Positions 21,888-37,646 of a stretch of 39,891 nt of DNA are shown here, piece after piece. The notes beneath the pieces were generated by a model that was not told the origin of the DNA, ran no database searches, and saw nothing but the letters and a program-made list of their open reading frames with translations. Made by a program: the position numbers and the translations under genes. Source of the DNA: Candidatus Ventricola sp. (GTDB lineage Bacteria > Bacillota > Clostridia > Christensenellales > Aristaeellaceae); contig JBJEYK010000043.1 in NCBI GenBank assembly GCA_051886775.1, forward strand, positions 1 to 39,891. The letters are read 5' to 3'. Every line of letters begins with the position of its first letter. Position 1 is the first letter of the stretch.

Positions 21888-21950
21888 CTTTCGTACGCCT
21901 CCCGCCGATATCACGGACGAAACCGCTACAATTGCATTCTCTTTTTTGTT

Positions 21951-21979
21951 AATCTACCATGTTTCTGTCCGTTTGTCAA
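21951..21979 (-). promoter_or_regulatory. Promoter of the hybrid kinase gene (TTGACA-17-TAGATT)
   Basis: Minus strand reads ttgacaaacggacagaaacatggtagatt, in an A/T-rich patch. Confidence 0.55.
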
Positions 21980-21997
21980 TCCGCCCGGCGGCCGCAG

Positions 21998-22047
21998 CTC
22001 AAAAGGAGCGCCCCCGCGCGGCCTGCCTGCCGCATAGGGACGCTCCT
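21998..22047 (-). terminator. Terminator after the diguanylate cyclase gene
   Basis: Minus strand reads AGGAGCG...(structured loop)...CGCTCCT followed by TTTGAGC. Confidence 0.45.
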
Positions 22048-22056
22048 GCAAAATGA

Positions 22057-23151
22057 TCAGCTTCTGCTGCGCCGGTCAATCCCGCGCTGCTGATAGAACG
22101 CGCGCTTATCCTCGTACATGCGCTGCTCCGCGCACCGGACCAGCCCGTTCATGTCGCATGCGTCAGCCGGCTGCCGCGCGCAGCCCACCGAGATATGATC
22201 GCCCGCCTGCTCGACGGCGCGGCGGAGCCGGTCAATCCGACCGTTCAGCGCATCCTCCGGGCAATCCGGCACGAAGGCCAGCATCTCATCGCCGCCGACG
22301 CGATAGCTGTGCTCCGTGCCAAAGGCGCGCTGCAGCTCGCCGGCGACGCGCCGCAGCATTTCGTCCCCGGCCTCGTGCCCGCGCGCATTGTTCAGCTCGT
22401 GCAGGCCGTTCACGTCGACATAGACGCACGCGAGCGAATCCCGGCACTGCCCGGGCGCCCGGCTCAGGCTCTGCTCGAAGGCGTTGCGGTTGAGCAGCCC
22501 GGTGAGCAGGTCGGTCCGGCTGAGCATGATCACCTGCTGCTCGTACAGGTAGCGCTTGCATTTGACGCCCATCATGTAGGTGCTGATGATGGCGCTGATG
22601 GCGCCGAAGACCACTGCGTTCATGATGTCGACAAAGCGCTGCTTGGGCTCCTTGGTCGCCATCACGATGATCGAGAACCCCAGCACCGCCAGGCAGATCG
22701 TCAGCACCATGCGGCAGGGGCGATCCACAAACAGCATCGGCGCGGTGAGCAGAATGGCAATGAAGCTGACGGACAGCTCCTCCGGATCCAGCACGGTGCC
22801 CGTGAGGATGCTCATGGCAAACAGACCGCCCAGGAACACATACAGCACCAGCAGCATCCGCCCGCGCGTCCAGGGCAGGCGCGACGCCCCGAACGCCAGC
22901 GCGGACACCGCCATGCCGCCGAAATAGACCCAGCGGTTGTCCGCCACCGGGGTATAGAAAAACGTACCCGCAAACATCGCCAGCAGGAACGCGCCGGAGA
23001 CGAGCGAAAATATGCGCATGCTCTGGCGGTTGCTGCGGATGATTTCCTCATCCAGCTGCCGGAATTCATCCAGCGTCAGACCGGCAGAGCACAGGTATCG
23101 TTTGATCCATTTCAAGGCCCGCTTCACGTCTTTTCCCCCTTCTGAATCCAT
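22057..23151 (-). CDS. Membrane-anchored diguanylate cyclase (GGDEF domain; motif reads GGDEM)
   Basis: The 364-aa version starts at MDSEGG. An alternative GTG at 23127 has GGGGGA 6 nt upstream. Five or six TM helices, then LTGLLNRNAFE...GDEMLRRVAGEL...YRVGGDEMLAF. I see no RxxD I-site just upstream of the motif. Confidence 0.8.
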   Translation of the reverse strand: MDSEGGKDVKRALKWIKRYLCSAGLTLDEFRQLDEEIIRSNRQSMRIFSLVSGAFLLAMFAGTFFYTPVADNRWVYFGGMAVSALAFGASRLPWTRGRMLLVLYVFLGGLFAMSILTGTVLDPEELSVSFIAILLTAPMLFVDRPCRMVLTICLAVLGFSIIVMATKEPKQRFVDIMNAVVFGAISAIISTYMMGVKCKRYLYEQQVIMLSRTDLLTGLLNRNAFEQSLSRAPGQCRDSLACVYVDVNGLHELNNARGHEAGDEMLRRVAGELQRAFGTEHSYRVGGDEMLAFVPDCPEDALNGRIDRLRRAVEQAGDHISVGCARQPADACDMNGLVRCAEQRMYEDKRAFYQQRGIDRRSRS

Positions 23152-23164
23152 GATAGCATGCGTT

Positions 23165-23252
23165 CGGCAAGAAAAGCAATCCCCTTGCGGCAGATTGCTT
23201 TCGTTTCTTTTTTCGCAAAAGGCCATGCCCCCGTGCTCGCGGGGACATGGCC
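23165..23252 (-). terminator. Tandem rho-independent terminators after hydA
   Basis: Minus strand reads GGCCATGTCCCCG-cgagca-CGGGGGCATGGCC + TTTTGCGAAAAAAG, then AAGCAATC-...-GATTGCTT + TTCTTG. Confidence 0.75.
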
Positions 23253-23270
23253 TTTGTGGTGGGTGCCGGA

Positions 23271-25010
23271 TTACTTCCTGCTGCGGTCGGTGTAGGTGGT
23301 GTGCAGCAGCTCGTGCGCCCGGTGGCCGTTCGGCTCGCCGAGGTACTCGGCGTAGAGCTTCTGGATGTCCGGGTTCTCGTGGGACTTGCGGATGACCTTC
23401 GCCTCGTCCTCGGCATACAGGCCGGCGGCGCGCACCTTGCGCGGATCGAGATCCATGCGCTTGGTGGCGTTGACGATGGGCTGGCCGCCGCCGTTGACGC
23501 AGCCGCCCGGGCAGGCCATGACCTCGACGAACGCGTAGCTGGCGTCGCCCGCCTGGATGCGGCGGATCAGCTTCTTCGCCGCGCCGGTGGAGCTGGCGAT
23601 GGCGACCTTGAGCTCCTTGCCGCCGAGGGTGAAGGTCGCTTCCTTCACGCCCTCGATGCCGCGGACGGCCTGATACTCGACGTTCTCCACGGAGCGGTTC
23701 TCCAGCACGTCGGCTGCGGTGCGCAGCGCGGCCTCCATGACGCCGCCGGTCACGCCGAAGATCGCCGCCGCGCCGGTGGACTCGGCCACCAGCTCGTCGA
23801 AGCACTCCTCGTCGGGCAGGCTGGCGAAGTCGATGCGGGCGTCGCGGATCATGCGGGCCAGCTCACGGGTGGTGATGGTGATATCCACGGAGCGCAGCTC
23901 CTCGACCTCCATCTCCGGGCGGGCCGTCTCGAACTTCTTGGCCGTACACGGCATCACGGCGACGACCACGATGCTGCGCGGGTCGATGCCGGCCTTCTCG
24001 GCGTAGTAGCTCTTGATGATCGCGCCCTCCATCTCCATAGGAGACTTGCAGGTGGACAGGTTCGGGATCAGCTCCGGGAAATTGTGCTCGACGTACTTGA
24101 TCCAGCCCGGCGAGCAGGAGGTGAACATCGGCAGCACGCCGCCGTTCTTGATGCGGGAGATCAGCTCGGCGGCCTCCTCCATGATGGTGAGGTCGGCGCC
24201 GAAGTCGGTGTCAAACACCTTGTCAAAGCCGAGGCGGCGCAGCGCCTGGGACAGCTTGCCGGTGACGCGGGTGCCCATGGGCAGGCCGAACTCCTCGCCC
24301 AGCGCCACGCGCACAGCCGGGGCCGGCTGCACGACGACGAACTTCTCCGGATCGGAGATGGCGTCCCACACGCGGTCGGTATCGTCCTTCTCGCGCAGCG
24401 CGCCGACCGGGCAGACGTTGATGCACTGGCCGCAGTTGATGCAGTCGGTCTCGCCCAGCTTCTTGCCGAAGGCCGGGGAGATCACCGTCTTGAAGCCGCG
24501 GTTGATCGCGCCGATCGCGCCGATGCCCTGCACGTTGCGGCACGCGGCCACGCAGCGGCGGCACAGGATGCACTTGTTCGGATCGCGCACGACGGACGGG
24601 GAGAACATGTCCAGCGGATACTCGATGTTCGCGCCCTCGTACTTGGTCTCGTCCGCGCCCAGCTCCTTTGCCAGCGTCTGCAATTCGCAGGTCTGGCTGC
24701 GCACGCAGGAGAGGCACTTGCGCTCGTGGTTGGAGAGGATCAGCTCCAGCACGGCCTTGCGCGCCGCGCGGACGTTCGGGGTGTTGGTCTTGACGACCAT
24801 GCCCTCGGACACCGGCATCACGCAGGCCGCGGCCAGCGCGCGCGCGCCCACGTCCACCACGCACATGCGGCACGCGCCGATGGCGTTGACGTCCTTGAGG
24901 TGGCAGAGGGTCGGGATGTGGATATTCGCCTGATGGGCGGCCTCCAGCACGGTGGTGCCGGCGGGCACCTGCACCGCGACGCCGTCAATCGTTACATTCA
25001 CCATTGCCAT
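23271..25010 (-). CDS. hydA: [FeFe]-hydrogenase catalytic subunit, HydABC (NADH/ferredoxin-dependent, bifurcating-type) family
   Basis: 579 aa. N-terminal [2Fe-2S] domain (CHLKDVNAIGACRMC), accessory 4Fe-4S motifs (CILCRRCVAAC, CINCGQCINVC) and H-cluster motifs FTSCSPGW, VMPCTAKKFE and EVMACPGGCVNGGGQP. A C-terminal small-subunit-like tail (RKSHENPDIQKLYAEYLG). Confidence 0.93.
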   Translation of the reverse strand: MAMVNVTIDGVAVQVPAGTTVLEAAHQANIHIPTLCHLKDVNAIGACRMCVVDVGARALAAACVMPVSEGMVVKTNTPNVRAARKAVLELILSNHERKCLSCVRSQTCELQTLAKELGADETKYEGANIEYPLDMFSPSVVRDPNKCILCRRCVAACRNVQGIGAIGAINRGFKTVISPAFGKKLGETDCINCGQCINVCPVGALREKDDTDRVWDAISDPEKFVVVQPAPAVRVALGEEFGLPMGTRVTGKLSQALRRLGFDKVFDTDFGADLTIMEEAAELISRIKNGGVLPMFTSCSPGWIKYVEHNFPELIPNLSTCKSPMEMEGAIIKSYYAEKAGIDPRSIVVVAVMPCTAKKFETARPEMEVEELRSVDITITTRELARMIRDARIDFASLPDEECFDELVAESTGAAAIFGVTGGVMEAALRTAADVLENRSVENVEYQAVRGIEGVKEATFTLGGKELKVAIASSTGAAKKLIRRIQAGDASYAFVEVMACPGGCVNGGGQPIVNATKRMDLDPRKVRAAGLYAEDEAKVIRKSHENPDIQKLYAEYLGEPNGHRAHELLHTTYTDRSRK

Positions 25011-25033: not shown

Positions 25034-26827
<1,794 letters not shown>

Positions 26828-26853: not shown

Positions 26854-27222
26854 TCAGCCCTGATGGCCGATGGTGTATTCCTCAACGGGTCTGCCGTTGA
26901 CGATGTGGTCGTTGACGATGCGGGCGACCTTCTCCGGCGTCATGTGGACGTAGGTCACCTTCTCCTGATCCTTGACGTACACCTCGACGATCGGCTCCAG
27001 CCGGCACATGCCCACGCAGCCGGTCTGGGCGACGGTCACATTCTCCAGGCCGCGGCGCTTGAGCTCCTCGACGAACTCCAGCATCACCGGGCGCGCGCCG
27101 GCGGCAATGCCGCAGGTCGCCATGCCCACGACGACGCGGGTGTCGATGTTGTCATCCTTGCGCATGTTGACCTGCTCGATCATCCTGGCGCGAATGGCGG
27201 CCAGCTCTGCAAGCGATTTCAT
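26854..27222 (-). CDS. Small thioredoxin-like ferredoxin-domain protein (HydD/HndB-like)
   Basis: 122 aa from MKSLAEL (M16 of the track ORF): VVVGMATCGIAAGA...VAQTGCVGMCRLEPIV. Only three Cys in total. Its ATG overlaps the upstream ATPase gene's stop (ATGA). Confidence 0.75.
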   Translation of the reverse strand: MKSLAELAAIRARMIEQVNMRKDDNIDTRVVVGMATCGIAAGARPVMLEFVEELKRRGLENVTVAQTGCVGMCRLEPIVEVYVKDQEKVTYVHMTPEKVARIVNDHIVNGRPVEEYTIGHQG

Positions 27223-27776
27223 GAAAAGTACCCCCCATGCAATTCTGTCAAGTCGTTGTAAAGACAATCCCTGATCCAGGCGGAAATGTCGGGATGGGAA
27301 ATCGGAAGCGGCGCGATCGTCTCGCGCACGGCGCGCGTGTCAAAGGTGAACACGCTGCCGTCGAAATCGTCGGTGAACAGGAAATCCGTGTCCGGGTTGG
27401 TGAGCAAAAGCGTGTAAAGCGCGCCGGGGATATCGCCCATCGGCGGCCGGTCGATGTGATCCAGCCCAAAGCTGGCGCGCACGGTCGTGCCCTCGCCCAG
27501 CTTCGATTCGATGGAGAAGCTGCCGCCGGTCATGCTCGCCGTCATCTGCAAAAGCGGCAGCCCCAGCCCGACCTTGCGCGTTTTGCGCGTGGTGGTGAAG
27601 GGCTGGGCGACGGCCTGAAGCAGCTCCTCGCTCATGCCGCGCCCGTTGTCGCGGAACTGAAGCGAAATGCGGTTGTCCGCGTGGCTGACGGTGATGGCGA
27701 TCTCCACCAGGCTCGCCTGAGCGGCAATCGAATTCTGGGCGATGTCCAGGATGTTGTCTGCAAGCTCGCGCATCAT
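27219..27776 (-). CDS. Stand-alone GHKL (histidine-kinase-like) ATPase domain protein embedded in the hyd operon
   Basis: 185 aa from MMRELAD. N box ILDIAQNSIAA, G1 RDNGRGM, G2 KVGLGLPLL. No HisKA/DHp, sensor or TM region. Confidence 0.75.
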   Translation of the reverse strand: MMRELADNILDIAQNSIAAQASLVEIAITVSHADNRISLQFRDNGRGMSEELLQAVAQPFTTTRKTRKVGLGLPLLQMTASMTGGSFSIESKLGEGTTVRASFGLDHIDRPPMGDIPGALYTLLLTNPDTDFLFTDDFDGSVFTFDTRAVRETIAPLPISHPDISAWIRDCLYNDLTELHGGYFS

Positions 27777-27926
27777 GGCGATGCCCCCCGTTCCCGATGA
27801 CTCCCGTTCTTTTCTGCTTATGGATACCCGCATTCCCTGCCGCGGCAGGGCTGCCCCGGCGGCGGCCAAAGGGCTTTCCGATCGCCTATGGGCTTGTCTG
27901 CCCAGGCGTGCGGGCATTTTCCTGAG

Positions 27927-28400
27927 TTACTGGCGATACTTGGCGATGATGTCCGGCACCTGATCCGGCGTGAGACGGCCGTAGACATCGTCGTTGACCA
28001 TCATCACCGGCGCGAGGCCGCAGGCGCCCAGGCAGCGGGTGGCGTTCAGGGTGAACAGGCCGTCCTTCGTGGTGCGACCGGCGGACACCTCCAGCACCTC
28101 CTCGAGCTTGTCGAGCACCTGCTGGCTGCCCTTGACATAGCAGGCGGTGCCCATGCACACGCTGATGATGTACTTGCCCTTCGGCTCCAGATTGAACTGC
28201 GCGTAGAATGTGGCCACGCCGTACACATCGCTCACCGGGATATCCAGCTCCTTGGCGATGTGATACTGCACATCCTCCGGCAGGTAGCCGAAGATGTCCT
28301 GCGCACGCTGCATAATGGGCATGAGCGCGCCCGGCTCGTCCTTCAGCTCGTCGATCACCTGCTGAAGCGCCGCAAACTTCTCCTTATTTTCCAGAGACAT
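27927..28400 (-). CDS. hydC: HydC, NuoE-like [2Fe-2S] subunit
   Basis: 157 aa from MSLENK (GAGGAGG RBS): SVCMGTACYVKG...RCLGACGLAPVMMVND (Cx4C...Cx3C). Confidence 0.9.
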   Translation of the reverse strand: MSLENKEKFAALQQVIDELKDEPGALMPIMQRAQDIFGYLPEDVQYHIAKELDIPVSDVYGVATFYAQFNLEPKGKYIISVCMGTACYVKGSQQVLDKLEEVLEVSAGRTTKDGLFTLNATRCLGACGLAPVMMVNDDVYGRLTPDQVPDIIAKYRQ

Positions 28401-28470
28401 GTCGAAACCAACCTCCTCGAACCGCACTATTTGATAGAATCCTGTCAATCTCTGTCGGTTTATCCGATTT

Positions 28471-28546: not shown

Positions 28547-29254
28547 TCAGTGCCATAATCCGGCAATTGTATCGAAGATCGCCTGCGCCGTCTTCTCCCG
28601 GGCCGCGAGGGAAACCTCCGGCTCCAGGATACATTCCAGGCGGTGCGCGTCGGAGGAGTGCAGGATGCGCCGCCCCTCGAGCGGCGTGCCCGGGGGGACG
28701 GGCAGCTCCCGCGCGACCTCCAGCGCGTCATAGGGCACGCCCTCGGGCAGAAAGCCCAGCGCGCCCAGCACGCCGTTGGCCCCGCGGTTGATGTGCGCGG
28801 GCACGCACAGCCCGCCGGCCTCGTGGATCAGCCGGGCGCAGTCCTCAAAGCCCAGGTCGAGCGCGCTGATGAGCAGGCGCTCCTCCACGGCGATTTCCTC
28901 GTCCTGGTCGTTCATCACCTGCTGCCGCCCGAAGAAGGCCTCGCGGTTTCGGATGGGCGGCAGGTGCGCGTAGATCACTTCGCCAAAGGCCACGCACGTC
29001 TCCACATCCCGGAAGTAGCACAGCATGTGCGCCTCCTCGCGGGTGGTCAGCTCCATGCCCGGCAGCAGCACCACGCCCATCGTGTCCGCCACAGCCTTGA
29101 CGGCAGGCAGATTGCGCGCGCTGTTGTGGTCGCACACGGCGATGGCGTCCAGCTGCTTGATGAAGGCCATGCCGACGATGTTGTTGGGCGTCATCAGCGC
29201 GTCGCCGCAGGGCGACAGGCAGGAGTGGATGTGCAGGTCGCAAAAGAGCTTCAT
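28547..29254 (-). CDS. PHP-domain phosphoesterase
   Basis: MKLFCDLHIHSCLSPCGD...AVCDHNSARN...VPAHINR...LHSSDAH are the PHP His/Asp metal motifs. 235 aa. Confidence 0.8.
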   Translation of the reverse strand: MKLFCDLHIHSCLSPCGDALMTPNNIVGMAFIKQLDAIAVCDHNSARNLPAVKAVADTMGVVLLPGMELTTREEAHMLCYFRDVETCVAFGEVIYAHLPPIRNREAFFGRQQVMNDQDEEIAVEERLLISALDLGFEDCARLIHEAGGLCVPAHINRGANGVLGALGFLPEGVPYDALEVARELPVPPGTPLEGRRILHSSDAHRLECILEPEVSLAAREKTAQAIFDTIAGLWH

Positions 29255-29604
29255 CCCTTTTTGGCCGAGGGCACGCCCTGCCCGGCCAGCAGCGCCACCA
29301 GCTCATAGGCCGTCTTCTCGCTGGAGAAGAGCACGATGCCCTCCTCCTTCGCCTTCTCGATGATCGCGGCCTCCACCGGCAGCTTTTCGGGGATGATCAC
29401 GCAGGCAAAGTCCAGCAGCGCCGCCACAGCGATCACATTCATGTGCGCCTGCACGGTGATCCAGGCCATGTCCGGCTGGCCGCGCCCCATGACGTGGCTG
29501 AGCAGATCGCAGGTGTATCCGCAGGCAATCTCGCGGTCCTCGTATTCGCCGGTCAGGCACCGGGCGCCGGAGAGCCGCTCCAAATCAGACAGAAGCATGG
29601 TCAT
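29251..29604 (-). CDS. DRTGG-domain protein (paralogue 2)
   Basis: 117 aa, collinear with the 31439..31789 product (REI..G/A..SDLLSHVM / SDMMSDVL; central hydrophobic beta-alpha pattern; C-terminal LL.A.G.P). Overlaps both neighbours. Confidence 0.65.
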   Translation of the reverse strand: MTMLLSDLERLSGARCLTGEYEDREIACGYTCDLLSHVMGRGQPDMAWITVQAHMNVIAVAALLDFACVIIPEKLPVEAAIIEKAKEEGIVLFSSEKTAYELVALLAGQGVPSAKKG

Positions 29605-31015
29605 CCTTCCTTTCGTCGTCCGTCTCGTTGTCGTCCTCGCGGCCCAGCGTCTTCTGCATCTGTGCCAGGCGGGCCGTCTCCTGCAGGGTATTGAAGCGCG
29701 TGGACGCGCCCAGCGTCACCATCTCCGCGGCCAGCGCGCCGATGCGGTCGTTGAGCTTGAACACGCAGTTCAGCTCGTTGGCGAAGCCATGCTCGATGTC
29801 CCAGGCCAGCGCGCGGCAGGTCGGCGAGCCGCAGGAGCCGCAGTCGTAGCCCGGCAGGCTGGCCGTCAGCCGGTCGATGCGCTCGGCGCGCTCGATGCGT
29901 TCCTGCATGGTGCCCTCCAGCTGCAGGCTGTTGTTCGGCTCAATCTCGCAGGTCAGGCGCAGGGTGTCGCAGGCGGTGTCGAAGACCTCGCGGTGGCGCA
30001 CGGTCTTCTGCTGCGTCCTGTTCATGACGCTGCGCAGGCGGTTCTTGGCCACGAAGCTGTTCTCCACCGTCAGCGGGCCGCCCAGGCAGCCGTTGACGCA
30101 GGCCAGCCCCTCGAAGTACGTCAGGTCGCGGAAGCGCTCGTTCTCGATCGCCTCCAGCACGCACATCACGTTGTCGATGCCGTCCACGCACAGCGAGCTC
30201 TTGATGCCCACGGCCTCGACCTCGCCGCCCGGCACGGCCCACTTGATGCCCACCACGCTGGCGCGGTCGATCTCCGGCTCGGTGAAGCCCTCGCTGAGCA
30301 GCGCGCGGATCTGGGGATACAAATCCTTGATGGCGATCACGCCGTCCACATAGGACTTCTCCTGCCCGATGGGCGACTTGACCGCCGTCATCTTCGCCGC
30401 GCAGGGCGTGATGAAGAACGCGCCAACCTCCTCCAGGGGCACGCCATGCCTTTGGGCGAACTCCTCCTTGGCGATCTTGGCGGCGGCCTCCATGGGCGAG
30501 ACGAAGTCGACCACATTGTCGATCAGGCCGGGATAGTTGACCTGGATCAGCCGCACGATCGCCGGGCAGGCCGAGGAGATCACCGGGCGCGGCCTGTCGT
30601 CGTGCTCGAGCGCCCTGGCGATGGCGTAGGAGACGATCTCCGCCGCGCGCGCCACCTCGAACACGTCGGTAAAGCCGAGCTTAAACAGCGCCGCGATGAT
30701 CGGCTCCGGCCTGTGCGTGCCCTGGAACTGGGCGTAGAGCGTGGGCGCGGGCAGCGCGATGCTGTACTTGTAGCGATGGATGATGTCGATAGGGTCGGTC
30801 ACGGCGATCTTCGCGTGACTGTCGCATACCTTGATGCACTCGCCGCAGTCGATGCAGCGCTCGTGCAGGATGGATGCGCGGTTGTTGCGGATGCGAATGG
30901 CCTCGGTGGGACAGCGCTTGAGGCAGGTCGTGCAGCCCTTGCACTTCTCCTTGTCCAGTCGCACGGAATGATAATAGGCCAACAAATTCGCCCCCTGTCT
31001 GCCGCTGTTCGGCAC
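29585..31015 (-). CDS. HydS-like sensory [FeFe]-hydrogenase homologue: 2x[4Fe-4S] + short H-domain + C-terminal RnfB-type Fe-S domain
   Basis: CKGCTTCLKRCP...CIDCGECIKVC. H-cluster-like motifs SSACPAI, FITPCAAKMTA and EGLACVNGCLGGP. C-terminal YDCGSCGSPTCRALAWD...NC. The GTG start at 31015 is 1 nt after the upstream stop. An alternative TTG about 10 codons in has GGGGG upstream. Confidence 0.8.
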   Translation of the reverse strand: MPNSGRQGANLLAYYHSVRLDKEKCKGCTTCLKRCPTEAIRIRNNRASILHERCIDCGECIKVCDSHAKIAVTDPIDIIHRYKYSIALPAPTLYAQFQGTHRPEPIIAALFKLGFTDVFEVARAAEIVSYAIARALEHDDRPRPVISSACPAIVRLIQVNYPGLIDNVVDFVSPMEAAAKIAKEEFAQRHGVPLEEVGAFFITPCAAKMTAVKSPIGQEKSYVDGVIAIKDLYPQIRALLSEGFTEPEIDRASVVGIKWAVPGGEVEAVGIKSSLCVDGIDNVMCVLEAIENERFRDLTYFEGLACVNGCLGGPLTVENSFVAKNRLRSVMNRTQQKTVRHREVFDTACDTLRLTCEIEPNNSLQLEGTMQERIERAERIDRLTASLPGYDCGSCGSPTCRALAWDIEHGFANELNCVFKLNDRIGALAAEMVTLGASTRFNTLQETARLAQMQKTLGREDDNETDDERKDDHASV

Positions 31016-31016
31016 A

Positions 31017-31433
31017 TTATATGTGGAAGATCATGGAAATGTCGGTGCCCACGCCGACGGCGGAGGTGATGGCAAACTCGTCGGCGTTGCGCTTCATGTT
31101 GGGCAGGCCCATGCCTGCGCCAAAGCCCATGTTGCGCACCTCGTTGGAGGCGGTGGACCAGCCCTCGGTCATGGCCTTTTCCAGATCCGGGATGCCCGGG
31201 CCGCAGTCGCGCACATGCACCAGGATGCTGTCGGAGGCGATCTCAAAGTCAATCTCCCCGCCCAGGGAGTGGATCACCAGGTTGATCTCCGCCTCGTAGG
31301 TGCACACGGACACGCGGCGCATGATCGTGCTGGGAATGCCCAGGCGCTTCATCTGCCGCTTGATGCGGGCGGACACGTCGCCCGCGGCGGTCATGTCCCC
31401 GGCGACGACCGGGTACGTCTCCTTGATCATCAT
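31017..31433 (-). CDS. RsbW/SpoIIAB-like GHKL serine-protein-kinase (anti-sigma-factor-type) protein
   Basis: 138 aa from MMIKETY. N box YEAEINLVIHS, G1 VRDCGPGIPD, G2 GFGAGMGLPNM. Confidence 0.75.
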   Translation of the reverse strand: MMIKETYPVVAGDMTAAGDVSARIKRQMKRLGIPSTIMRRVSVCTYEAEINLVIHSLGGEIDFEIASDSILVHVRDCGPGIPDLEKAMTEGWSTASNEVRNMGFGAGMGLPNMKRNADEFAITSAVGVGTDISMIFHI

Positions 31434-31438
31434 ACGGC

Positions 31439-31789
31439 TCACCCCAGCTTCACGGGCGGCAGACCGGCCGCGTAGAGCAGCCCGCACGCCTCAAACATCG
31501 AGTAGGGCGTGCGCAGCGCGGGCAGGCCCATCTCTCGGGCCATCTCCACCGCGTCGGGCTGCGGCTCCTTGCCGCGCACGAACACGACGCAGGGCACGTC
31601 CAGCATTTCGCATGTGCGCACCGACTGGCTGTTGACCAGCCCGGTGAGCAGCAGCGTATCCTCCGTCACATAAGCAAGCACGTCGCTCATCATATCCGAG
31701 GCAAAGGCGGCGTGGATTTCGCGTTCGCCCTCCTCCTCACAGCATAGCCAGGCTGCGCGAAGCAGTCTGGCGATCTCCCGTACGGTCAT
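31439..31789 (-). CDS. DRTGG-domain protein (paralogue 1), first gene of the cassette
   Basis: 116 aa: MTVREIARLL...EREIHAAFASDMMSDVLAYVTEDTLLLTGLVNSQSVRTCEMLDVPCVVFVRGKEP... GGGAGGA RBS. Confidence 0.65.
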   Translation of the reverse strand: MTVREIARLLRAAWLCCEEEGEREIHAAFASDMMSDVLAYVTEDTLLLTGLVNSQSVRTCEMLDVPCVVFVRGKEPQPDAVEMAREMGLPALRTPYSMFEACGLLYAAGLPPVKLG

Positions 31790-31924
31790 CGCGATTCCTC
31801 CCGATCATCCCTGTATAATCTGCACAATTTGGTGCCATGATTGTATTATACTTTATCGGGCGCGTCCCTGTCTACGGCTTGGCGGCGATTTCTTGACCGC
31901 GGGGCAAAAGAATCCGCCGCCTCC

Positions 31925-33246: not shown

Positions 33247-34641
33247 TTACTGCTTACCCTTCACATAGGCGTCGATGGCCTTGGCCGCCTGCTTGCCGGC
33301 GCCCATGGCCAAGATCACCGTGGCCGCGCCGGTCACGGCGTCGCCGCCGGCGTATACGCCCTCGCGGCTGGTGAGGCCGTCCTCACCGTCTGTGACGATG
33401 CAGCCGTGGCGGTTCGTCTCCAGGCCGGGGGTGGTGGTGCGGATCAGCGGGTTCGGGCTGGTGCCGATGGACATGATCATCGTGTCCACGTCGAGCGTGA
33501 ACTCGCTGCCCTCCTTGACCACCGGGCGGCGGCGGCCGGAGGCGTCCGGCTCGCCCAGCTCCATCTCCACGCAGCGCATGCCGCGCACGAAGCCGTTCTC
33601 GTCGCCGAGCACCTCGACCGGGTTGGTCAGCGTGCGGAAAAGGATGCCCTCCTCCTGCGCGTGCTCAACCTCCTCGCGGCGGGCGGGCAGCTCGGCCATG
33701 CCGCGGCGATAGACGATGGTGACCTCCTCCGCGCCCAGGCGCTTGGCGCTGCGGGCCGCATCCATCGCGACATTGCCGCCGCCGACGACCGCCACGCGGC
33801 GGCTCTTCATGATGGGGGTCTTGCTGCCGTCCTGGTAGGCCTTCATCAGGTTAATGCGGGTCAGGTACTCGTTGGCGGAATACACGCCCTTCAAGCTCTC
33901 GCCGGGGATGCCCATGAAGCGCGGCAGGCCTGCGCCGGAGGCGATGTACACCGCCTCATAGCCCATGTCGAACAGCTCGTCGATGGTGAGCACCTTGCCG
34001 ATGACCATGTTGGTGAGGATCTCCACGCCCATGGCCTTCAGGCCGTCGATCTCCTTGCGGACGATCGCCTTGGGCAGGCGGAACTCCGGAATGCCGTAGA
34101 CCAGCACGCCGCCGGCGACGTGCAGCGCCTCGAACACCGTGACGGCGTAGCCCAGCTTCGCCAGGTCGCCCGCCGCCGTCAGGCCGGACGGGCCTGCGCC
34201 GATGATGGCGACCCTGTGGCCGTTCGGCTCGGGCCTTTCCGGGGTTTCCTGCACGTGCTCGCGGTGCCAGTCGGCCACGAAGCGCTCCAGCCGGCCGATG
34301 GCCACGCTTTCACCCTTCACGCCGCGCACGCACTTGCCCTCGCACTGGTTCTCCTGCGGGCAGACGCGGCCGCACACCGCCGGCAGCGCGGAGGACGCAT
34401 GCAGCACCTGATAGGCGCCCTCCATGTCTTCCTCCGCCATGCGGGCGATGAACGCCGGGATGTCGATCTGCACCGGGCAGGCGCTGACGCAGGGCTTCTT
34501 CGGGCAGCTCAGGCAGCGGCGCGCCTCATTCACCGCCATGTCCCAGGTGTAGCCCAGGGCGACCTCGTCGAAATTGCGGTTGCGGACGCCCGGCTCCTGC
34601 GCGGGCATCGGGCACTTCTTCATGTCCATATTGCGAGCCAT
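33247..34641 (-). CDS. nfnB: NfnB / GltD-like NADPH-dependent FAD oxidoreductase with 2x[4Fe-4S]
   Basis: 464 aa: RCLSCPKKPCVSACPVQIDIP, CGRVCPQENQCEGKC, VAIIGAGPSGLTAAGDL, VAVVGGGNVAMDAAR. Confidence 0.8.
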   Translation of the reverse strand: MARNMDMKKCPMPAQEPGVRNRNFDEVALGYTWDMAVNEARRCLSCPKKPCVSACPVQIDIPAFIARMAEEDMEGAYQVLHASSALPAVCGRVCPQENQCEGKCVRGVKGESVAIGRLERFVADWHREHVQETPERPEPNGHRVAIIGAGPSGLTAAGDLAKLGYAVTVFEALHVAGGVLVYGIPEFRLPKAIVRKEIDGLKAMGVEILTNMVIGKVLTIDELFDMGYEAVYIASGAGLPRFMGIPGESLKGVYSANEYLTRINLMKAYQDGSKTPIMKSRRVAVVGGGNVAMDAARSAKRLGAEEVTIVYRRGMAELPARREEVEHAQEEGILFRTLTNPVEVLGDENGFVRGMRCVEMELGEPDASGRRRPVVKEGSEFTLDVDTMIMSIGTSPNPLIRTTTPGLETNRHGCIVTDGEDGLTSREGVYAGGDAVTGAATVILAMGAGKQAAKAIDAYVKGKQ

Positions 34642-34642
34642 A

Positions 34643-35485
34643 TCAGCGCACCTCCTGATGAAGCAGATTGCAGGCCGCCTCGCGGGCGTGCTGCTCGAAT
34701 TCGCGGTACATGCTGCCGCGCTTCATCGCCTCGTCGAAATCGACGAGATGGCCGTCGAAGTCCGGGCCGTCCACGCAGGCGAACTTGGTCTCGCCGCCCA
34801 CGGTCAGGCGGCAGCCGCCGCACATGCCCGTGCCGTCGATCATGATCGGGTTCATGGAGACGACGGTCTTCACGCCGTACTTCTTCGTCGTCAGGCAGAC
34901 GAACTTCATCATGACCAGCGGGCCGATGGCGATGACCTCGTCGTACTGGTTGCCCGCCTGGATGAGCTGCTCCAGCGCGGCGGTGACCAGGCCCTTTTCG
35001 CCCCAGCTGCCGTCGTCGCTCATCTTCACGAAGCGATCCGACGCAGCCTCGAACTCCTTTTCCAGGATCACCAGGTCGCGGCTGCGGAAGCCGGCCACGG
35101 TGTGCACCTCGCAGCCCAGCTCATGCAGCTTCTTGGCGACGGGATAGGCGATGGCGCAGCCCACGCCGCCGCCCACGACGCAGACCTTCTTCAGCCCCTC
35201 GGTGTGCGTGGGCTTGCCCAGCGGGCCGACGAAATCGCACAGGCTCTGCCCGGCCTCCATCGCGTCCAGCTCCATCGTGGAGCCGCCGACGATCTGATAG
35301 ATGATCGTCACGGTGCCGGCCTCGCGGTCGTAATCGGCGATGGTCAGCGGCACGCGCTCGCTGTCCTCATGCGTGCGGAAGATGATGAACTGGCCCGGCT
35401 CCGCCTTGCGGGCGATAAACGGCGCCTTCACGACCATCTTGGTCACGGTCGGGTTCAGGCGCTCCTTGCTGATGATGGGATACAT
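34643..35485 (-). CDS. nfnA: NfnA-like FAD/NAD(P)-binding subunit with C-terminal [2Fe-2S] (sulfide/dihydroorotate dehydrogenase-like)
   Basis: 280 aa from MYPIISKERL (M53 of the track ORF, AGGAGGA RBS): RVPLTIADYD, VVGGGVGCAIAYP, CGGCRLTVGGETKFACVDGPDFDGH. Confidence 0.8.
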   Translation of the reverse strand: MYPIISKERLNPTVTKMVVKAPFIARKAEPGQFIIFRTHEDSERVPLTIADYDREAGTVTIIYQIVGGSTMELDAMEAGQSLCDFVGPLGKPTHTEGLKKVCVVGGGVGCAIAYPVAKKLHELGCEVHTVAGFRSRDLVILEKEFEAASDRFVKMSDDGSWGEKGLVTAALEQLIQAGNQYDEVIAIGPLVMMKFVCLTTKKYGVKTVVSMNPIMIDGTGMCGGCRLTVGGETKFACVDGPDFDGHLVDFDEAMKRGSMYREFEQHAREAACNLLHQEVR

Positions 35486-35603
35486 GCTGTGTCCTCCTGC
35501 TTCATGCCGCCCGGCGCACCGGGCGCGTATACGCAAAAACATATTCGACGAAAAGCAGGCCCTCCCTGCATGGACGCCGTTTTTTTCAATAATTCGTTGA
35601 ATA

Positions 35604-35636
35604 ATACATAAAACAGACGCCCTGTTCGGCGTCTGA
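35604..35636 (-). terminator. Terminator after the response regulator gene
   Basis: Minus strand reads CAGACGCC-gaacag-GGCGTCTG followed by TTTTATGTATTATT. Confidence 0.7.
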
Positions 35637-35661
35637 TTCATATAGGGTGCGCATTCCTGCG

Positions 35662-36369
35662 TCAGTCCCCCTCGATCATCCGGTAGCCCACGCCCACCTC
35701 AGTGAAGATATACTGCGGCTCGGCGGGGTTTTTCTCGATCTTGCGGCGGATGTTGGCCATGTTGACGCGCAGAATCTGGTTGTCGCAGGCCTTGTTCGGG
35801 CCCCAGATCTCGCGGATGAGGTAGTCGTATGTCAGCACGCGGCCCGCGTAGCGGCCCAGCAGCGCCACGAGCTTGAACTCGTTCTGCGTCAGGCACGCGT
35901 CCTCGCCGCGGATATAGACGCGGTACTTGTCGTAGTCGATGACCAGCTCCCTGGCCTGGAAGCGGTTGCTCCGGGCGATGGAGGCATTGCCGCCAGTGGT
36001 GCGCGTGTGGCGGATCGCTGTGCGGATGCGCGCCAGCAGCTCGGAGGTGCCAAACGGCTTGGTGATGTAGTCGTCGGCGCCGGCGTCCAGCGCGCGCACC
36101 TTTTCGTGCTCGTCCGTGCGGGCGGAGACGACGACCACCGGCATCAGCGACCAGGTGCGCAGCTCGCGCAGCACGGCCATGCCGTCCATGTCCGGCAGCC
36201 CCAGATCCAGAATGACCACGTCCGGGCAATGGGAGGCCAGCAGGCTGGTCGCCTCACGCCCCGTGTTGACCACCAGCGTCTCGTAGCCGTTGGCCTCCAG
36301 CACGCGCCGGATAAAGCTGCAAATTGCGCGATCGTCCTCGACGATCATCACCCTGCCTTTAACCGCCAT
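35662..36369 (-). CDS. OmpR-family response regulator, KdpE-like
   Basis: 235 aa from MAVKGRVMIVEDD: ILDLGLPDMDG, SARTDEHEKVRALDAGADDYITKPF, then a winged-helix output domain (LTQNEFKLVALL...VNMANIRRKIE...IFTEVGVGYRM). Confidence 0.9.
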   Translation of the reverse strand: MAVKGRVMIVEDDRAICSFIRRVLEANGYETLVVNTGREATSLLASHCPDVVILDLGLPDMDGMAVLRELRTWSLMPVVVVSARTDEHEKVRALDAGADDYITKPFGTSELLARIRTAIRHTRTTGGNASIARSNRFQARELVIDYDKYRVYIRGEDACLTQNEFKLVALLGRYAGRVLTYDYLIREIWGPNKACDNQILRVNMANIRRKIEKNPAEPQYIFTEVGVGYRMIEGD

Positions 36370-37465
36370 CGCTCTTTTCCTCCTCCATCGGCAGCACGAA
36401 GCAGACCTGCGCGCCGCCCTCCTTTTGGTTCTGCGCGCGCATGGTGCCGCCGTGCGCACGCACAATGCTCATGCAGGCCGACAGCCCGATGCCCAGGCTT
36501 CGCCGCCCGTCGCCCTCCTTCTCGTGAGGGAACAGCTCGTCAAACAGCTTGGGCAGCACCGCCTTGTCGATGCCCGCGCCGTCGTCCTGCACGCAAAAGC
36601 ACGCCCCTTCGCCCTCCCGGGAGACGACGATCTCGATGCCCGTCGCGCCGCGGGCGTGCACCACTGCGTTTTCCATCAGGTTGATGAGCACCTGCTCGAT
36701 CAGCGTCGCGTCCATCGGCACGATCAGCAGCTCGTCGGGCACATGCACCCGCACAGGCATGCTGCGGCTCTTGCGGAACTTATCCACCGCCTCTGCCACG
36801 ATCTCCTCAGCGGCCTCCGGCGTCTTTCGGATGCGCACCACGCCGTCCTTGATGCGGGTGATGGACAGGATGTTCTCCACCAGGCGCACCAGCCACTGCG
36901 CGTCGTCGCGCACGTGGGCGAGCAGATCGCGCTTCACCTCGTCGGAGAACACGTCGTAATTCTCCAGCACCGCCGTAGCCGACCCGATAATCGAGGTCAG
37001 CGGCGTGCGCAGATCGTGCGACACGCTGCGCAGCAGGTTGGCCTTGACCTTCTCCTGCTCGGCCTCGGCCTGGATGCGCCCCTGGCGCTTGACCTGCTCG
37101 GTCAGTGTGCTGACGACCATGGACACGGTGAACATCGTCAGGAAGGTGATGGGATAGCCGGTGAGCGTGAAGTTGAACTCGAAATACGGATAGGTAAACG
37201 CGTAATTGACGCTGAACACCGACACCACCGAGGCGAACATGCCGTAGAAATAGCCCTCGGTGCACCGTGCCGTCAGCAGCACGGCCAGCACAAACACCAG
37301 CGGCACGGCGCTGTCGTTGTGGCCGAGCCGGTTGATCCCGGCGCAGAAGATCGCCGCAGCCGCCAGCAGCGCCAGCGTCACAGCCAGATTCCGGGCGATC
37401 TGCCTGCCGCTCTGCTGGCGCGGGATGAGCAGCTCCCGCAGCCAGGCCATTCTCCCGGGCTTCAT
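36359..37465 (-). CDS. Sensor histidine kinase, KdpD C-terminal-half type (TM bundle + HisKA + HATPase, no N-terminal KdpD/Usp domain)
   Basis: 368 aa from MKPGRMAWL (GGGGGGA RBS). Four TM helices, H-box LLRSVSHDLRTPLTSI, G1 VQDDGAGI, G2 GIGLSAC. It overlaps the RR gene by 11 nt. Confidence 0.85.
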   Translation of the reverse strand: MKPGRMAWLRELLIPRQQSGRQIARNLAVTLALLAAAAIFCAGINRLGHNDSAVPLVFVLAVLLTARCTEGYFYGMFASVVSVFSVNYAFTYPYFEFNFTLTGYPITFLTMFTVSMVVSTLTEQVKRQGRIQAEAEQEKVKANLLRSVSHDLRTPLTSIIGSATAVLENYDVFSDEVKRDLLAHVRDDAQWLVRLVENILSITRIKDGVVRIRKTPEAAEEIVAEAVDKFRKSRSMPVRVHVPDELLIVPMDATLIEQVLINLMENAVVHARGATGIEIVVSREGEGACFCVQDDGAGIDKAVLPKLFDELFPHEKEGDGRRSLGIGLSACMSIVRAHGGTMRAQNQKEGGAQVCFVLPMEEEKSDGG

Positions 37466-37553
37466 CGCGTGGTTTTCCCCCCTTGCCCCATTCTTCCGCC
37501 TGCGCGCATCGGGCACAAACGGCGAAATGGCGGCGGTACGTCGGTTCTGTTTC

Positions 37554-37562
37554 ATTATATCA
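37554..37562 (-). promoter_or_regulatory. Extended -10 (TGaTATAAT) promoter for the HK/RR operon
   Basis: Minus strand reads ctgTGaTATAATgaaac, ~90 nt upstream of the HK start. Confidence 0.45.
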
Positions 37563-37646
37563 CAGCATGGCGTCAAGCCTGCGTTAAGATTGAACGTCAT
37601 GTTACAAAAATGTAAAAAACAATTGCTTTCCTTTTCAGCAATGCCA

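What the first reader, a model, noticed from the sequence alone, without database searches (positions are those of the whole stretch)
29585..31015. Sensor-type [FeFe]-hydrogenase homologue: all four H-cluster cysteines kept, proton relay removed, RnfB-type Fe-S domain instead of a PAS/output domain
The three H-cluster signatures in the 476-aa product read SSACPAI (canonical TSCCPxW), FITPCAAKMTA (canonical MPCxxKxxE) and EGLACVNGCLGGP (canonical ExMACxxGCxxGG).
- The cluster-ligating Cys of L1, the L2 Cys and Lys, and both L3 Cys are present.
- The proton-relay Cys (CpI C299 position) is Ala.
- The L2 Glu (CpI E361 position) is Ala.

This is the pattern described for putative H2-sensing (HydS-type) enzymes rather than catalytic ones. 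Unlike the HydS proteins I recall, which carry a C-terminal PAS domain, this one ends in a CxxCGxxxC...C module (YDCGSCGSPTCRALAWD...NC) resembling the N-terminal Fe-S domain of RnfB/CdhE, followed by an acidic tail. The H-domain is also much shorter than in CpI-type enzymes. How a signal would leave the protein is not evident from the sequence.
Basis: partly seen in the sequence, partly recalled or inferred. Interest (0 to 1): 0.7.

Follow-up and report, generated by a model that had tools for sequence, protein, structure and literature searches.

The report
Known group D sensory-type [FeFe]-hydrogenase
This gene encodes an ordinary member of an already described family of slow, probably hydrogen-sensing iron hydrogenases (group D, "M2e"), and it sits at the head of an operon for a hydrogen-producing enzyme complex that it probably helps regulate.

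Summary
ORF 29585-31015 (minus strand) encodes a protein with two N-terminal [4Fe-4S] motifs, a short H-domain and a C-terminal PF04060 Fe-S module (Cx2Cx4Cx16C). All four H-cluster cysteines and the lysine are present; CpI C299 is Ala and E361 is Ala.

It is not new. This is the M2e subclass, group D, of putative sensory [FeFe]-hydrogenases. The class was named in 2010-2012 and characterised as TamHydS from 2020. The window protein is 49% identical to TamHydS end to end (E 4e-154). It carries the group D markers, including the alternative proton path. Thousands of relatives exist.

The Fe-S module does not replace PAS, because PAS-bearing group C enzymes have it too. The group A relay is replaced by another path, not simply removed.

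The gene lies in a 10-gene operon: DRTGG, SpoIIAB-like ATPase, HydS, DRTGG, PHP phosphoesterase, then a bifurcating HydABC cluster. Across 80 loci the ATPase (73/74) and the upstream DRTGG gene (67/69) are nearly always present. Recurrent natural fusions of HydS to DRTGG or to the ATPase nominate them as the unidentified signalling partners. That is a lead for the whole family, not something special to this window.

The parts
31845..31874 (-). Promoter-like site (TAGACA-18-TATAAT, 11/12) about 56 nt upstream of the first gene of the operon
   Evidence: This is a consensus match only; function has not been shown.
31439..31789 (-). DRTGG-domain protein (DRTGG_a), 116 aa, first gene of the cassette
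   Evidence: Pfam DRTGG E 2e-8. Found upstream of HydS in 67/69 informative loci. Homologues occur fused to the N-terminus of HydS (P0165, P0174).
31017..31433 (-). SpoIIAB/RsbW-like GHKL ATPase or serine kinase (HATPase_c_2), about 138 aa. The listed ORF runs to 31487, but the ATG at 31433 follows the DRTGG_a stop.
   Evidence: Pfam HATPase_c_2 E 9e-9. NCBIfam match to anti-sigma F factor, below cut-off. The only PDB hits are SpoIIAB. Directly upstream of HydS in 73/74 loci. N-box, G1 and G2 motifs are invariant. A homologue is fused to HydS in P0148.
29585..31015 (-). Group D (M2e) putative sensory [FeFe]-hydrogenase, HydS. 476 aa from the GTG; the likely real start is the TTG at 30985.
   Evidence: It is 49% identical to TamHydS over 426 aa (E 4e-154).
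30815..30964 (-). F-domain: two [4Fe-4S] motifs (C25/28/31/35 and C54/57/60/64)
   Evidence: Pfam Fer4_10/Fer4 at residues 18-67. All eight Cys are invariant in 59 homologues.
30074..30763 (-). H-domain (residues 85-314) with H-cluster ligands C150, C205, C306, C310 and K208. A149 sits at the CpI C299 position.
   Evidence: Pfam Fe_hyd_lg_C E 4e-32. CpI mapping. All top Foldseek hits of the AF2 model are [FeFe]-hydrogenases.
29759..29857 (-). C-terminal Fe-S module (PF04060), Cx2Cx4Cx16C: C392, C395, C400, C417
   Evidence: E 2e-8. Aligns to RnfB residues 36-75 (9eri_B). The Cys are invariant. In TamHydS this site binds a [4Fe-4S] cluster (PMC13104023).
29588..29653 (-). Variable acidic C-terminal tail (residues ~455-476), following a clade-conserved GASTRF motif (residues 436-441)
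   Evidence: Alignment A1. pLDDT is below 50 for residues 460-476.
29251..29604 (-). Second DRTGG-domain protein (DRTGG_b), 117 aa. Its start overlaps the HydS stop by 20 nt.
   Evidence: Pfam DRTGG E 9.5e-4 and Hpr_kinase_N E 3e-4, both below their cut-offs. Found downstream of HydS in 67/78 loci. Homologues are fused to the C-terminus of HydS in five separate 50%-identity clusters.
28547..29254 (-). PHP-family phosphoesterase, 235 aa
   Evidence: Pfam PHP. Found downstream in 61/72 loci. Metal-binding residues are invariant: DLHxH, DHN, H76, H154, DAH.
27927..28448 (-). HydC (NuoE-like thioredoxin-like [2Fe-2S] subunit)
   Evidence: Pfam 2Fe-2S_thioredx E 7e-56. NCBIfam NuoE above cut-off.
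27219..27917 (-). Second GHKL ATPase (HATPase_c), embedded in the HydABC cluster. The N-terminal ~47 aa of the ORF are not conserved, so the start is uncertain.
   Evidence: Pfam HATPase_c E 4e-17. Conserved position between NuoE and the ferredoxin gene in 27 of the 28 loci scored with the cluster downstream (L074 has NuoE upstream instead). ATP-binding motifs are conserved.
26854..27267 (-). Small [2Fe-2S] ferredoxin-like protein (HydD-like). The likely start is the ATG at 27222.
   Evidence: Conserved in synteny.
25034..26827 (-). HydB (NuoF-like flavoprotein subunit)
   Evidence: Pfam Complex1_51K, NADH_4Fe-4S, Fer4. NCBIfam NuoF family.
23271..25010 (-). HydA, the group A catalytic subunit of a bifurcating-type HydABC hydrogenase. 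Its L1 motif is TSCSPGW.
   Evidence: Pfam Fe_hyd_lg_C E 4e-98 plus Fe_hyd_SSU. NCBIfam FeFe_hydrog_A6 at 895 bits against a cut-off of 765. Best PDB hit is 7q4v_A, HydABC HydA1, E 9e-226.

Best explanation
**Identity.** The gene encodes a group D (M2e) [FeFe]-hydrogenase, an orthologue of Thermoanaerobacter mathranii TamHydS.

**Cofactors (inferred by homology).** It should bind a complete H-cluster through C150, C205, C306 and C310, with K208 in the pocket. It should also bind two N-terminal [4Fe-4S] clusters and a third [4Fe-4S] cluster in the C-terminal PF04060 module.

**Activity (shown for TamHydS only).** The group A proton pathway is absent. A group D-specific glutamate path (E265/E302/D278 here) takes its place. 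TamHydS therefore reacts with H2 with high affinity but turns over slowly.

**Role (inferred).** The protein most likely reports the H2 or redox level rather than carrying metabolic flux.

**Context (shown here).** It is the third gene of a 10-gene operon that ends in a bifurcating-type HydABC hydrogenase.

**How the signal leaves (inferred).** The signal does not leave through a fused output domain. It probably passes by protein contact to the co-encoded partners:
- a SpoIIAB-like GHKL ATPase/serine kinase;
- two small DRTGG-domain proteins;
- a PHP phosphoesterase that would reset any phosphorylation.

The final target (HydABC activity, the second GHKL ATPase inside the HydABC cluster, or a sigma factor) is unknown.
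For: **Identity**
- 49% identity to TamHydS over 426 aa, E 4e-154. I rebuilt the TamHydS protein from the published coding sequence; all 17 residue numbers cited in the paper match.
- Domain order is Fer4 x2, H-domain, PF04060, with no PAS.
- Group D markers: A at C299, T at M353 (S/T is typical of M2e), L at M497, and E265/E302/D278 matching TamHydS E252/E289/D265.
- Only 28% identity to a PAS-bearing group C-type paralogue. E about 1e-10 to CpI.
- The AF2 model (pLDDT 78) matches only [FeFe]-hydrogenases.

**Properties of the family (literature)**
- TamHydS binds [2Fe]adt and shows low turnover, high H2 affinity and CO tolerance (PMC8163306).
- The alternative proton path was tested by mutagenesis (PMC10407848).
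- The C-terminal cluster is a [4Fe-4S] that is not reduced by H2 (PMC13104023).

**Context**
- Operon anatomy.
- Synteny in 80 loci:

| Neighbour | Loci with it / informative loci |
|---|---|
| HATPase_c_2 upstream | 73/74 |
| DRTGG_a upstream | 67/69 |
| DRTGG_b downstream | 67/78 |
| PHP downstream | 61/72 |
| HydABC downstream | 28/56 |

- Natural fusions: HydS::DRTGG in five clusters, DRTGG::HydS in two, HATPase_c_2::HydS in one. They recur at the same length in independent assemblies, and the fused parts are homologous to the window's partner proteins.
- Catalytic motifs of the partner proteins are conserved.
Against: - A sensory role has not been demonstrated physiologically for any group D enzyme. 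The literature calls it putative.
- The operon has no DNA-binding protein or sigma factor. In half of the loci the cassette is not followed by HydABC, so the regulated target is not defined.
- The C-terminal cluster of TamHydS does not change redox state under H2. The Fe-S module is therefore unlikely to be the switch.
- One proposed proton-path residue is not kept: TamHydS S249 is P262 here.
- Two charged residues near the C-terminal cluster that are conserved in group D differ here: E392 -> W405 and D403 -> N416.
- No interaction, phosphorylation or activity was measured here.
- The conserved Ser of the DRTGG proteins may be structural rather than a phosphorylation site.
Confidence: 0.75

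Rival explanations
1. It is a slow but real metabolic hydrogenase or redox module rather than a sensor. For example, it could use H2 to keep a partner protein or a cluster reduced, or act as an accessory electron entry point for HydABC.
For: [quoted passage not shown] The N-terminal clusters are reduced by H2. A dedicated proton path is conserved. The sensory role is only putative.
Against: Rates are low in TamHydS. The near-invariant neighbours are signalling-type proteins (a GHKL ATPase and a PHP phosphoesterase), not redox partners. In half of the loci the cassette occurs without an adjacent HydABC.
Confidence: 0.15
2. It is a Nar1/CIA-like Fe-S scaffold that keeps the cysteines but cannot hold a [2Fe] subcluster.
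For: The H-domain is shortened and lacks the small-subunit region. No HydE/F/G genes were found in the window.
Against: The 49%-identical TamHydS takes up [2Fe]adt and is active. The pocket residues K208, A90-P91 and P174 are kept here, and E265 and E302 align with TamHydS E252 and E289. Maturase genes are often elsewhere in the genome.
Confidence: 0.03
3. It is a group C (PAS-type) HydS that has lost or split off its PAS domain, or a new kind of sensor hydrogenase.
For: The Fer4, H-domain and PF04060 core is shared with group C.
Against: Only 28% identity to a group C-type paralogue against 49% to TamHydS. No PAS-encoding gene in the operon. The architecture is shared by at least 7,994 relatives and 444 clusters at 50% identity, and it was named M2e / group D years ago.
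Confidence: 0.03

Closest known systems
TamHydS, Thermoanaerobacter mathranii (group D, subclass M2e [FeFe]-hydrogenase)
   Same: Same domain order and length class. 49% identity end to end. Matching or near-identical L1, L2 and L3 motifs (SSACPA, (S/T)PCAAK, EGLACxxGCxGGP). Same Cx2Cx4Cx16C module. Ala at C299, hydroxyl residue at M353, Leu at M497. E252/E289/D265 equivalents are kept. Encoded upstream of a trimeric bifurcating hydrogenase with a kinase-like ATPase nearby.
   Different: TamHydS S249 is P262 here, E392 is W405 and D403 is N416. The window protein has an extra ~40-residue C-terminal extension with a GASTRF motif and an acidic tail. It comes from a high-GC uncultured gut-type Clostridia lineage, not a thermophile.
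TmHydS / group C (M2f) putative sensory [FeFe]-hydrogenases
   Same: Two N-terminal [4Fe-4S] motifs, a short H-domain without the group A proton path, the same C-terminal PF04060 cluster module, and genomic linkage to bifurcating hydrogenases and to kinases or phosphatases.
   Different: Group C has a PAS domain after the Fe-S module and is linked to PP2C/SpoIIE phosphatases. Here there is no PAS. The neighbours are DRTGG, HATPase_c_2 and PHP proteins. Identity to a group C-type paralogue is only 28%.
CpI / DdH prototypical group A [FeFe]-hydrogenases
   Same: Same fold (Foldseek E about 1e-15, TM 0.52-0.58). The four H-cluster cysteines and K358 are present.
   Different: The group A proton pathway (C299, E279, S319, E282, R286) is absent. 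M353 and M497 are replaced. There is no small-subunit region, and the H-domain is about 56 residues shorter on the Pfam profile.
N-terminal Fe-S domain of RnfB (PF04060)
   Same: The C-terminal module matches PF04060 above cut-off and aligns to RnfB residues 36-75 of 9eri_B.
   Different: Here it is at the C-terminus of a hydrogenase. In TamHydS this cluster is not reduced by H2 and has little effect on catalysis.
SpoIIAB-SpoIIAA / RsbW-RsbV partner-switching modules (comparison for the flanking cassette only)
   Same: A small GHKL serine-kinase-like ATPase whose only PDB matches are SpoIIAB. It is co-encoded with small alpha/beta proteins and a phosphatase.
   Different: There is no STAS-domain protein, no PP2C phosphatase and no sigma factor in the operon. 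DRTGG and PHP proteins stand in those positions. Phosphorylation is untested.

Membership tests
Group D (M2e) [FeFe]-hydrogenase | H-domain with the four H-cluster cysteines and the L2 lysine | tested here: met
   C150, C205, C306, C310 and K208 map to CpI C300, C355, C499, C503 and K358. All are invariant in 59 homologues.
Group D (M2e) [FeFe]-hydrogenase | [quoted passage not shown] | tested here: met
   Fer4 dicluster at residues 18-67. All eight Cys are invariant.
Group D (M2e) [FeFe]-hydrogenase | C-terminal four-cysteine motif Cx2Cx4Cx16C | tested here: met
   C392-x2-C395-x4-C400-x16-C417, read directly. PF04060 E 2e-8. The motif is as defined in PMC8163306.
Group D (M2e) [FeFe]-hydrogenase | No PAS domain (this distinguishes it from group C/M2f) | tested here: met
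   No PAS hit at E <= 0.01. Only 57 residues follow the Fe-S module. The same scan finds PAS in the group C-type paralogue of L002.
Group D (M2e) [FeFe]-hydrogenase | Group A proton pathway absent (no Cys at C299); hydroxyl residue at M353 | tested here: met
   A149, I132, A135 and V169 stand at C299, E279, E282 and S319, and R286 aligns to a gap. T203 is at M353 and L304 at M497. Alignment outside the motifs is at about 20% identity, so the E279, E282 and S319 columns are less certain.
Group D (M2e) [FeFe]-hydrogenase | Group D alternative proton path (TamHydS E252, E289, S249, D265) | tested here: inconclusive
   E265, E302 and D278 are kept. S249 is P262 here, and Pro is near-invariant in this subclade. 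The literature describes S249 as only moderately conserved.
Group D (M2e) [FeFe]-hydrogenase | Full-length sequence relationship to the characterised member | tested here: met
   BLASTP against the rebuilt TamHydS: 49% identity over 426 aa, E 4e-154. Against a group C-type paralogue: 28%. No formal tree was built.
Group D (M2e) [FeFe]-hydrogenase | Encoded upstream of a trimeric bifurcating group A hydrogenase, with a kinase-like gene between them | tested here: met
   Operon anatomy. As described in PMC3561251 and PMC8163306.
Group D (M2e) [FeFe]-hydrogenase | Binds a [2Fe] subcluster; low turnover and high H2 affinity | not testable with these tools
   Shown only for TamHydS. Needs maturation plus FTIR/EPR and activity assays.
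Group C (M2f) sensory [FeFe]-hydrogenase (HydS with PAS) | PAS domain C-terminal to the Fe-S module | tested here: not met
Prototypical group A [FeFe]-hydrogenase | TSCCPxW with the proton-relay Cys; MPCxxKxxE; small-subunit region | tested here: not met
   The motifs here read SSACPA and TPCAAKMTA. There is no Fe_hyd_SSU domain.
Partner-switching module (SpoIIAB/RsbW type), considered for the flanking cassette | GHKL serine kinase plus STAS-domain substrate plus PP2C phosphatase plus sigma factor | tested here: not met
   Only the GHKL component is present. No STAS, PP2C or sigma factor is in the operon. The cassette may work in a similar way but is not a member.

The most novel reading that the evidence does not exclude
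The conserved cassette DRTGG / SpoIIAB-like GHKL ATPase / HydS / DRTGG / PHP phosphoesterase could be the still-unidentified signalling apparatus of group D hydrogenases.

In this reading the DRTGG domain takes the place that PAS has in group C. In several lineages it is fused at the same C-terminal position. The ATPase and the PHP enzyme would then convert the H2-dependent conformational state of HydS into a phosphorylation or partner-binding signal that controls HydABC.

I found no paper in the searchable library that links DRTGG to hydrogenases. A 2026 paper from the TamHydS group states that the interaction partners still have to be identified.
Probability: 0.35. Interest if true: 0.6.

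Novelty: already known. Interest (0 to 1): 0.3.

Why it matters
The protein itself is an ordinary member of a described family, so it changes nothing by its presence.

The family does have an open question that the TamHydS group states explicitly: what the hydrogenase interacts with and how an H2 signal leaves it. This window shows the complete context in one operon. The comparison across 80 loci, together with the natural fusions, names concrete candidate partners: two DRTGG proteins, a SpoIIAB-like ATPase and a PHP phosphoesterase. These could be tested directly by co-purification and by phosphorylation assays with and without H2.

Control of bifurcating hydrogenases by H2 partial pressure matters for fermentation balances in gut and rumen Clostridia and in biofuel strains.

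Tried and rejected
- **Solved structures.** No group C or D structure exists in the PDB copy. The best hits are group A and CbA5H enzymes, so no direct structural reference was available.
- **NCBIfam.** There is no model specific to this family; the top hit, TIGR04105, is far below its cut-off. This explains the generic database names such as "4Fe-4S binding protein".
- **Rex operator.** A search for TTGTKAANNNNTTMACAA with up to 3 mismatches gave no match in the window.
- **HydE/F/G maturases.** None were found among the window genes scanned with Pfam, so the maturation capacity of the organism cannot be judged from this window.
- **P0040.** This 566-aa HydS-DRTGG "fusion" at 80% identity was rejected as evidence. 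It is a singleton, and its Arg-rich linker looks like a frameshifted reading of the acidic tail. The fusions I do use have natural linkers and recur in independent assemblies.
- **Genes downstream of cassettes that lack HydABC.** They are unrelated housekeeping genes (EF-G, PfkB, ABC transporter and others), so no alternative regulated target emerged.
- **Conserved Ser in the DRTGG proteins.** The D-[LM]-[LM]-S-[DH]-V motif was considered as a phospho-acceptor. I could not tell this apart from a structural role, so it remains only a suggestion.
- **Literature.** Searches for DRTGG, anti-sigma factors or locus tags together with M2e hydrogenases found nothing on the partner proteins.
- **Not attempted.** A formal phylogeny with curated group A-G references, and multimer structure prediction, were not possible with the tools and sequences allowed.
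Full report
**1. The observation**

ORF 29585-31015 on the minus strand encodes 476 aa from a GTG.
- SSACPAI at residues 147-153;
- FITPCAAKMTA at 201-211;
- EGLACVNGCLGGP at 302-314;
- YDCGSCGSPTCRALAWD...NC at 390-417.

Pfam finds a 4Fe-4S dicluster domain (18-67), Fe_hyd_lg_C (85-314, E 4e-32) and the RnfB-type "FeS" domain PF04060 (387-419, E 2e-8, above cut-off). It finds no PAS domain.

The PDB sequence search hits only [FeFe]-hydrogenases with the H-domain. RnfB is hit through the ferredoxin motifs and, in 9eri_B, through residues 378-417.

To use CpI numbering I rebuilt the CpI sequence from the HMMER alignment of the window's own HydA to chain 9rj9_A. I checked 21 known wild-type positions; position 160 reads L because the chain is the N160L variant.

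| CpI residue | Residue here |
|---|---|
| C299 | A149 |
| C300 | C150 |
| M353 | T203 |
| C355 | C205 |
| K358 | K208 |
| E361 | A211 |
| M497 | L304 |
| C499 | C306 |
| C503 | C310 |

E279, E282 and S319 align with I132, A135 and V169, and R286 aligns with a gap. The alignment is less certain in those columns.

The H-domain is shorter than in group A. The Pfam profile covers 230 residues here against 286 in the neighbouring HydA, and there is no small-subunit domain.

The likely real start is the TTG at 30985. It has an AGGGGG Shine-Dalgarno sequence, and the 96%-identical P0001 starts there.

**2. What it is**

The literature describes this architecture as subclass M2e, or group D. It has two N-terminal [4Fe-4S] motifs, an H-domain lacking C299 and the rest of the group A proton pathway, a C-terminal Cx2Cx4Cx16C motif and no PAS domain. 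It is usually encoded upstream of a trimeric bifurcating hydrogenase (PMC8163306).

Carere et al. listed "D M2e" enzymes as monomeric sensory hydrogenases in 2012. They noted their position upstream of bifurcating hydrogenases, often separated by a histidine or serine kinase (PMC3561251).

I rebuilt the characterised member, TamHydS, from the OCR-damaged coding sequence in the supplement of PMC13104023. Its length (435 aa) and all 17 residue numbers cited in the papers match. The window protein is 49% identical to it over 426 residues, end to end, E 4e-154.

A group C-type paralogue found in related locus L002 has Fer4, H-domain, PF04060 and PAS, and lies next to a SpoIIE phosphatase. It is only 28% identical to the window protein.

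The family is large:
- at least 7,994 relatives, all with PF02906 + PF04060 + Fer4;
- 444 clusters at 50% identity with E <= 1e-30;
- more than 541 hits among GTDB species genomes, mostly uncultured Clostridia (Christensenellales-like, Oscillospiraceae, Aristaeellaceae) and some Spirochaetes.

The nearest genomes are UMGS1056 (76%) and Candidatus Ventricola gallistercoris (71%).

In 59 homologues the SSACP, PCAAK and LACxNGCLGGP motifs and all twelve accessory-cluster cysteines are invariant. An AlphaFold2 model (pLDDT 78, pTM 0.74) matches only [FeFe]-hydrogenases in the PDB. NCBIfam has no model for this family, which explains the vague database names.

**3.

The Fe-S module is not a substitute for PAS. 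Group C has both, and group D simply ends after the module.

The proton relay is not simply removed. Group D has its own path, E252 -> E289 -> S249 -> D265 in TamHydS, supported by mutagenesis (PMC10407848). Here E265, E302 and D278 are kept, while S249 is P262. Pro is near-invariant in this subclade.

Two charged residues near the C-terminal cluster are reported as conserved in group D but differ here: E392 is W405 and D403 is N416.

**4. Context**

The gene is the third in a co-directional series with overlapping or short gaps:
1. DRTGG protein (31439-31789)
2. SpoIIAB-like HATPase_c_2 protein (31017-31433)
3. HydS
4. a second DRTGG protein (29251-29604, overlapping the HydS stop)
5. PHP phosphoesterase (28547-29254)
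6. NuoE-like HydC
7. a second GHKL ATPase
8. a small [2Fe-2S] ferredoxin
9. NuoF-like HydB
10. HydA

HydA is most similar to the HydA1 subunit of the bifurcating HydABC complex (7q4v_A, E 9e-226). A strong promoter-like site precedes the first gene, and no convincing terminator separates the cassette from hydABC. No Rex box was found.

**5. How the signal might leave (inference)**

As of April 2026 the TamHydS group reports two things. The C-terminal cluster does not respond to H2. The interaction partners still need to be identified.

Synteny in the 80 loci:

| Neighbour of HydS | Loci with it / informative loci |
|---|---|
| HATPase_c_2, directly upstream | 73/74 |
| DRTGG, upstream | 67/69 |
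| Second DRTGG, downstream | 67/78 |
| PHP, downstream | 61/72 |
| HydABC, downstream | 28/56 |

Where HydABC is missing, unrelated genes follow or HydABC is divergent. The cassette is therefore a unit of its own.

Among the 150 best cluster representatives, eight are natural fusions:
- HydS::DRTGG at the C-terminus: P0125, P0149, P0225, P0242, P0226;
- DRTGG::HydS at the N-terminus: P0165, P0174;
- HATPase_c_2::HydS: P0148.

The linkers look natural. Several fusion clusters recur at the same length in independent assemblies, including an isolate genome; three are singletons seen on one or two contigs. The fused parts are homologous to the window's partner proteins at 26-46% identity.

The partner proteins keep their catalytic motifs across loci:
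- the N-box, G1 and G2 motifs of the ATPase;
- the full metal-binding set of the PHP enzyme;
- a shared D-[LM]-[LM]-S-[DH]-V motif in both DRTGG paralogues.

The only PDB relatives of the ATPase are SpoIIAB anti-sigma F factors.

From this I infer that HydS signals by contact with the DRTGG proteins and the GHKL ATPase, and that PHP acts as the reset enzyme. Nothing about binding or phosphorylation was tested, and the output target is unknown.

**6. Novelty and verdict**

The protein is an ordinary member of a described and experimentally characterised family.

The value beyond that is a lead for the whole family, not something particular to this window. The conserved cassette and the fusions nominate interaction partners. 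I found no paper linking DRTGG proteins to hydrogenases.

I rate the finding as already known, with interest 0.3. The partner hypothesis is the most novel reading that the evidence does not exclude.

Noticed in passing
window 23271-25010 (-), HydA residues 297-303; also HydA genes in L001-L075: The catalytic HydA of the operon has L1 = TSCSPGW, with Ser at the CpI C300 position, which is a [4Fe-4S]H ligand. L2 and L3 are canonical. All 36 HydA genes found in the 80 loci share this motif, as does the structurally solved HydA1 of 7q4v. NCBIfam calls this class group A6. An eLife 2013 paper noted the motif in passing. I did not establish how the cubane is ligated.
   Followed up: partly
L002 2205-5043 (-): In Candidatus Ventricola gallistercoris a group C-type hydrogenase lies just upstream of the group D cassette, on the opposite strand. 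It has Fer4, H-domain, PF04060 and PAS, with L1 = SSCCH, and it sits next to a SpoIIE/PP2C phosphatase. One genome region therefore carries both putative sensor types. The window has an M20 peptidase at that position instead.
   Followed up: partly
window 33247-35641 (-): Two genes look like NfnAB (NADH-dependent ferredoxin:NADP oxidoreductase). One is a GltD-like Fer4_20 + Pyr_redox_2 protein of 464 aa. The other is a 332-aa protein with a DHODB_Fe-S_bind domain. They lie just upstream of the hydrogenase operon, separated from it by a divergent M20 peptidase gene.
   Followed up: no
window 27219-27917 (-): A second GHKL ATPase (HATPase_c, no HisKA domain) is embedded between hydC and the small ferredoxin gene. 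It holds that position in 27 of the 28 loci scored with HydABC downstream. Its ATP-binding motifs and a C-terminal region of unknown function are conserved. Its role in HydABC is unknown to me.
   Followed up: partly
window 29588-29710 (-), HydS residues 436-476: A clade-specific GASTRF motif (S438, T439 and R440 invariant, G436 and F441 near-invariant, in 59 homologues) follows the C-terminal helix. A low-complexity acidic tail of variable length comes after it. Both are absent from TamHydS. This might be a docking element.
   Followed up: no
window 31016-31045 (-): A second promoter-like match (CCGACA-18-TATAAT, 10/12) lies inside the 3' end of the ATPase gene, immediately upstream of hydS. 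It could be chance: 1.5 such sites are expected in the scanned region.
   Followed up: no
window 19167-23805 (-) and 35662-37600 (-): Signalling genes flank the operon. Downstream are a GGDEF protein and a hybrid histidine kinase with a receiver domain. Upstream is an OmpR-type response regulator with a DUF4118 histidine kinase. I found no evidence linking them to the hydrogenase.
   Followed up: no
P0040 (homologue, 566 aa): This looks like a HydS-DRTGG fusion at 80% identity, but its Arg-rich linker resembles a frameshifted reading of the acidic tail. It is a singleton and probably an assembly artefact.
   Followed up: yes
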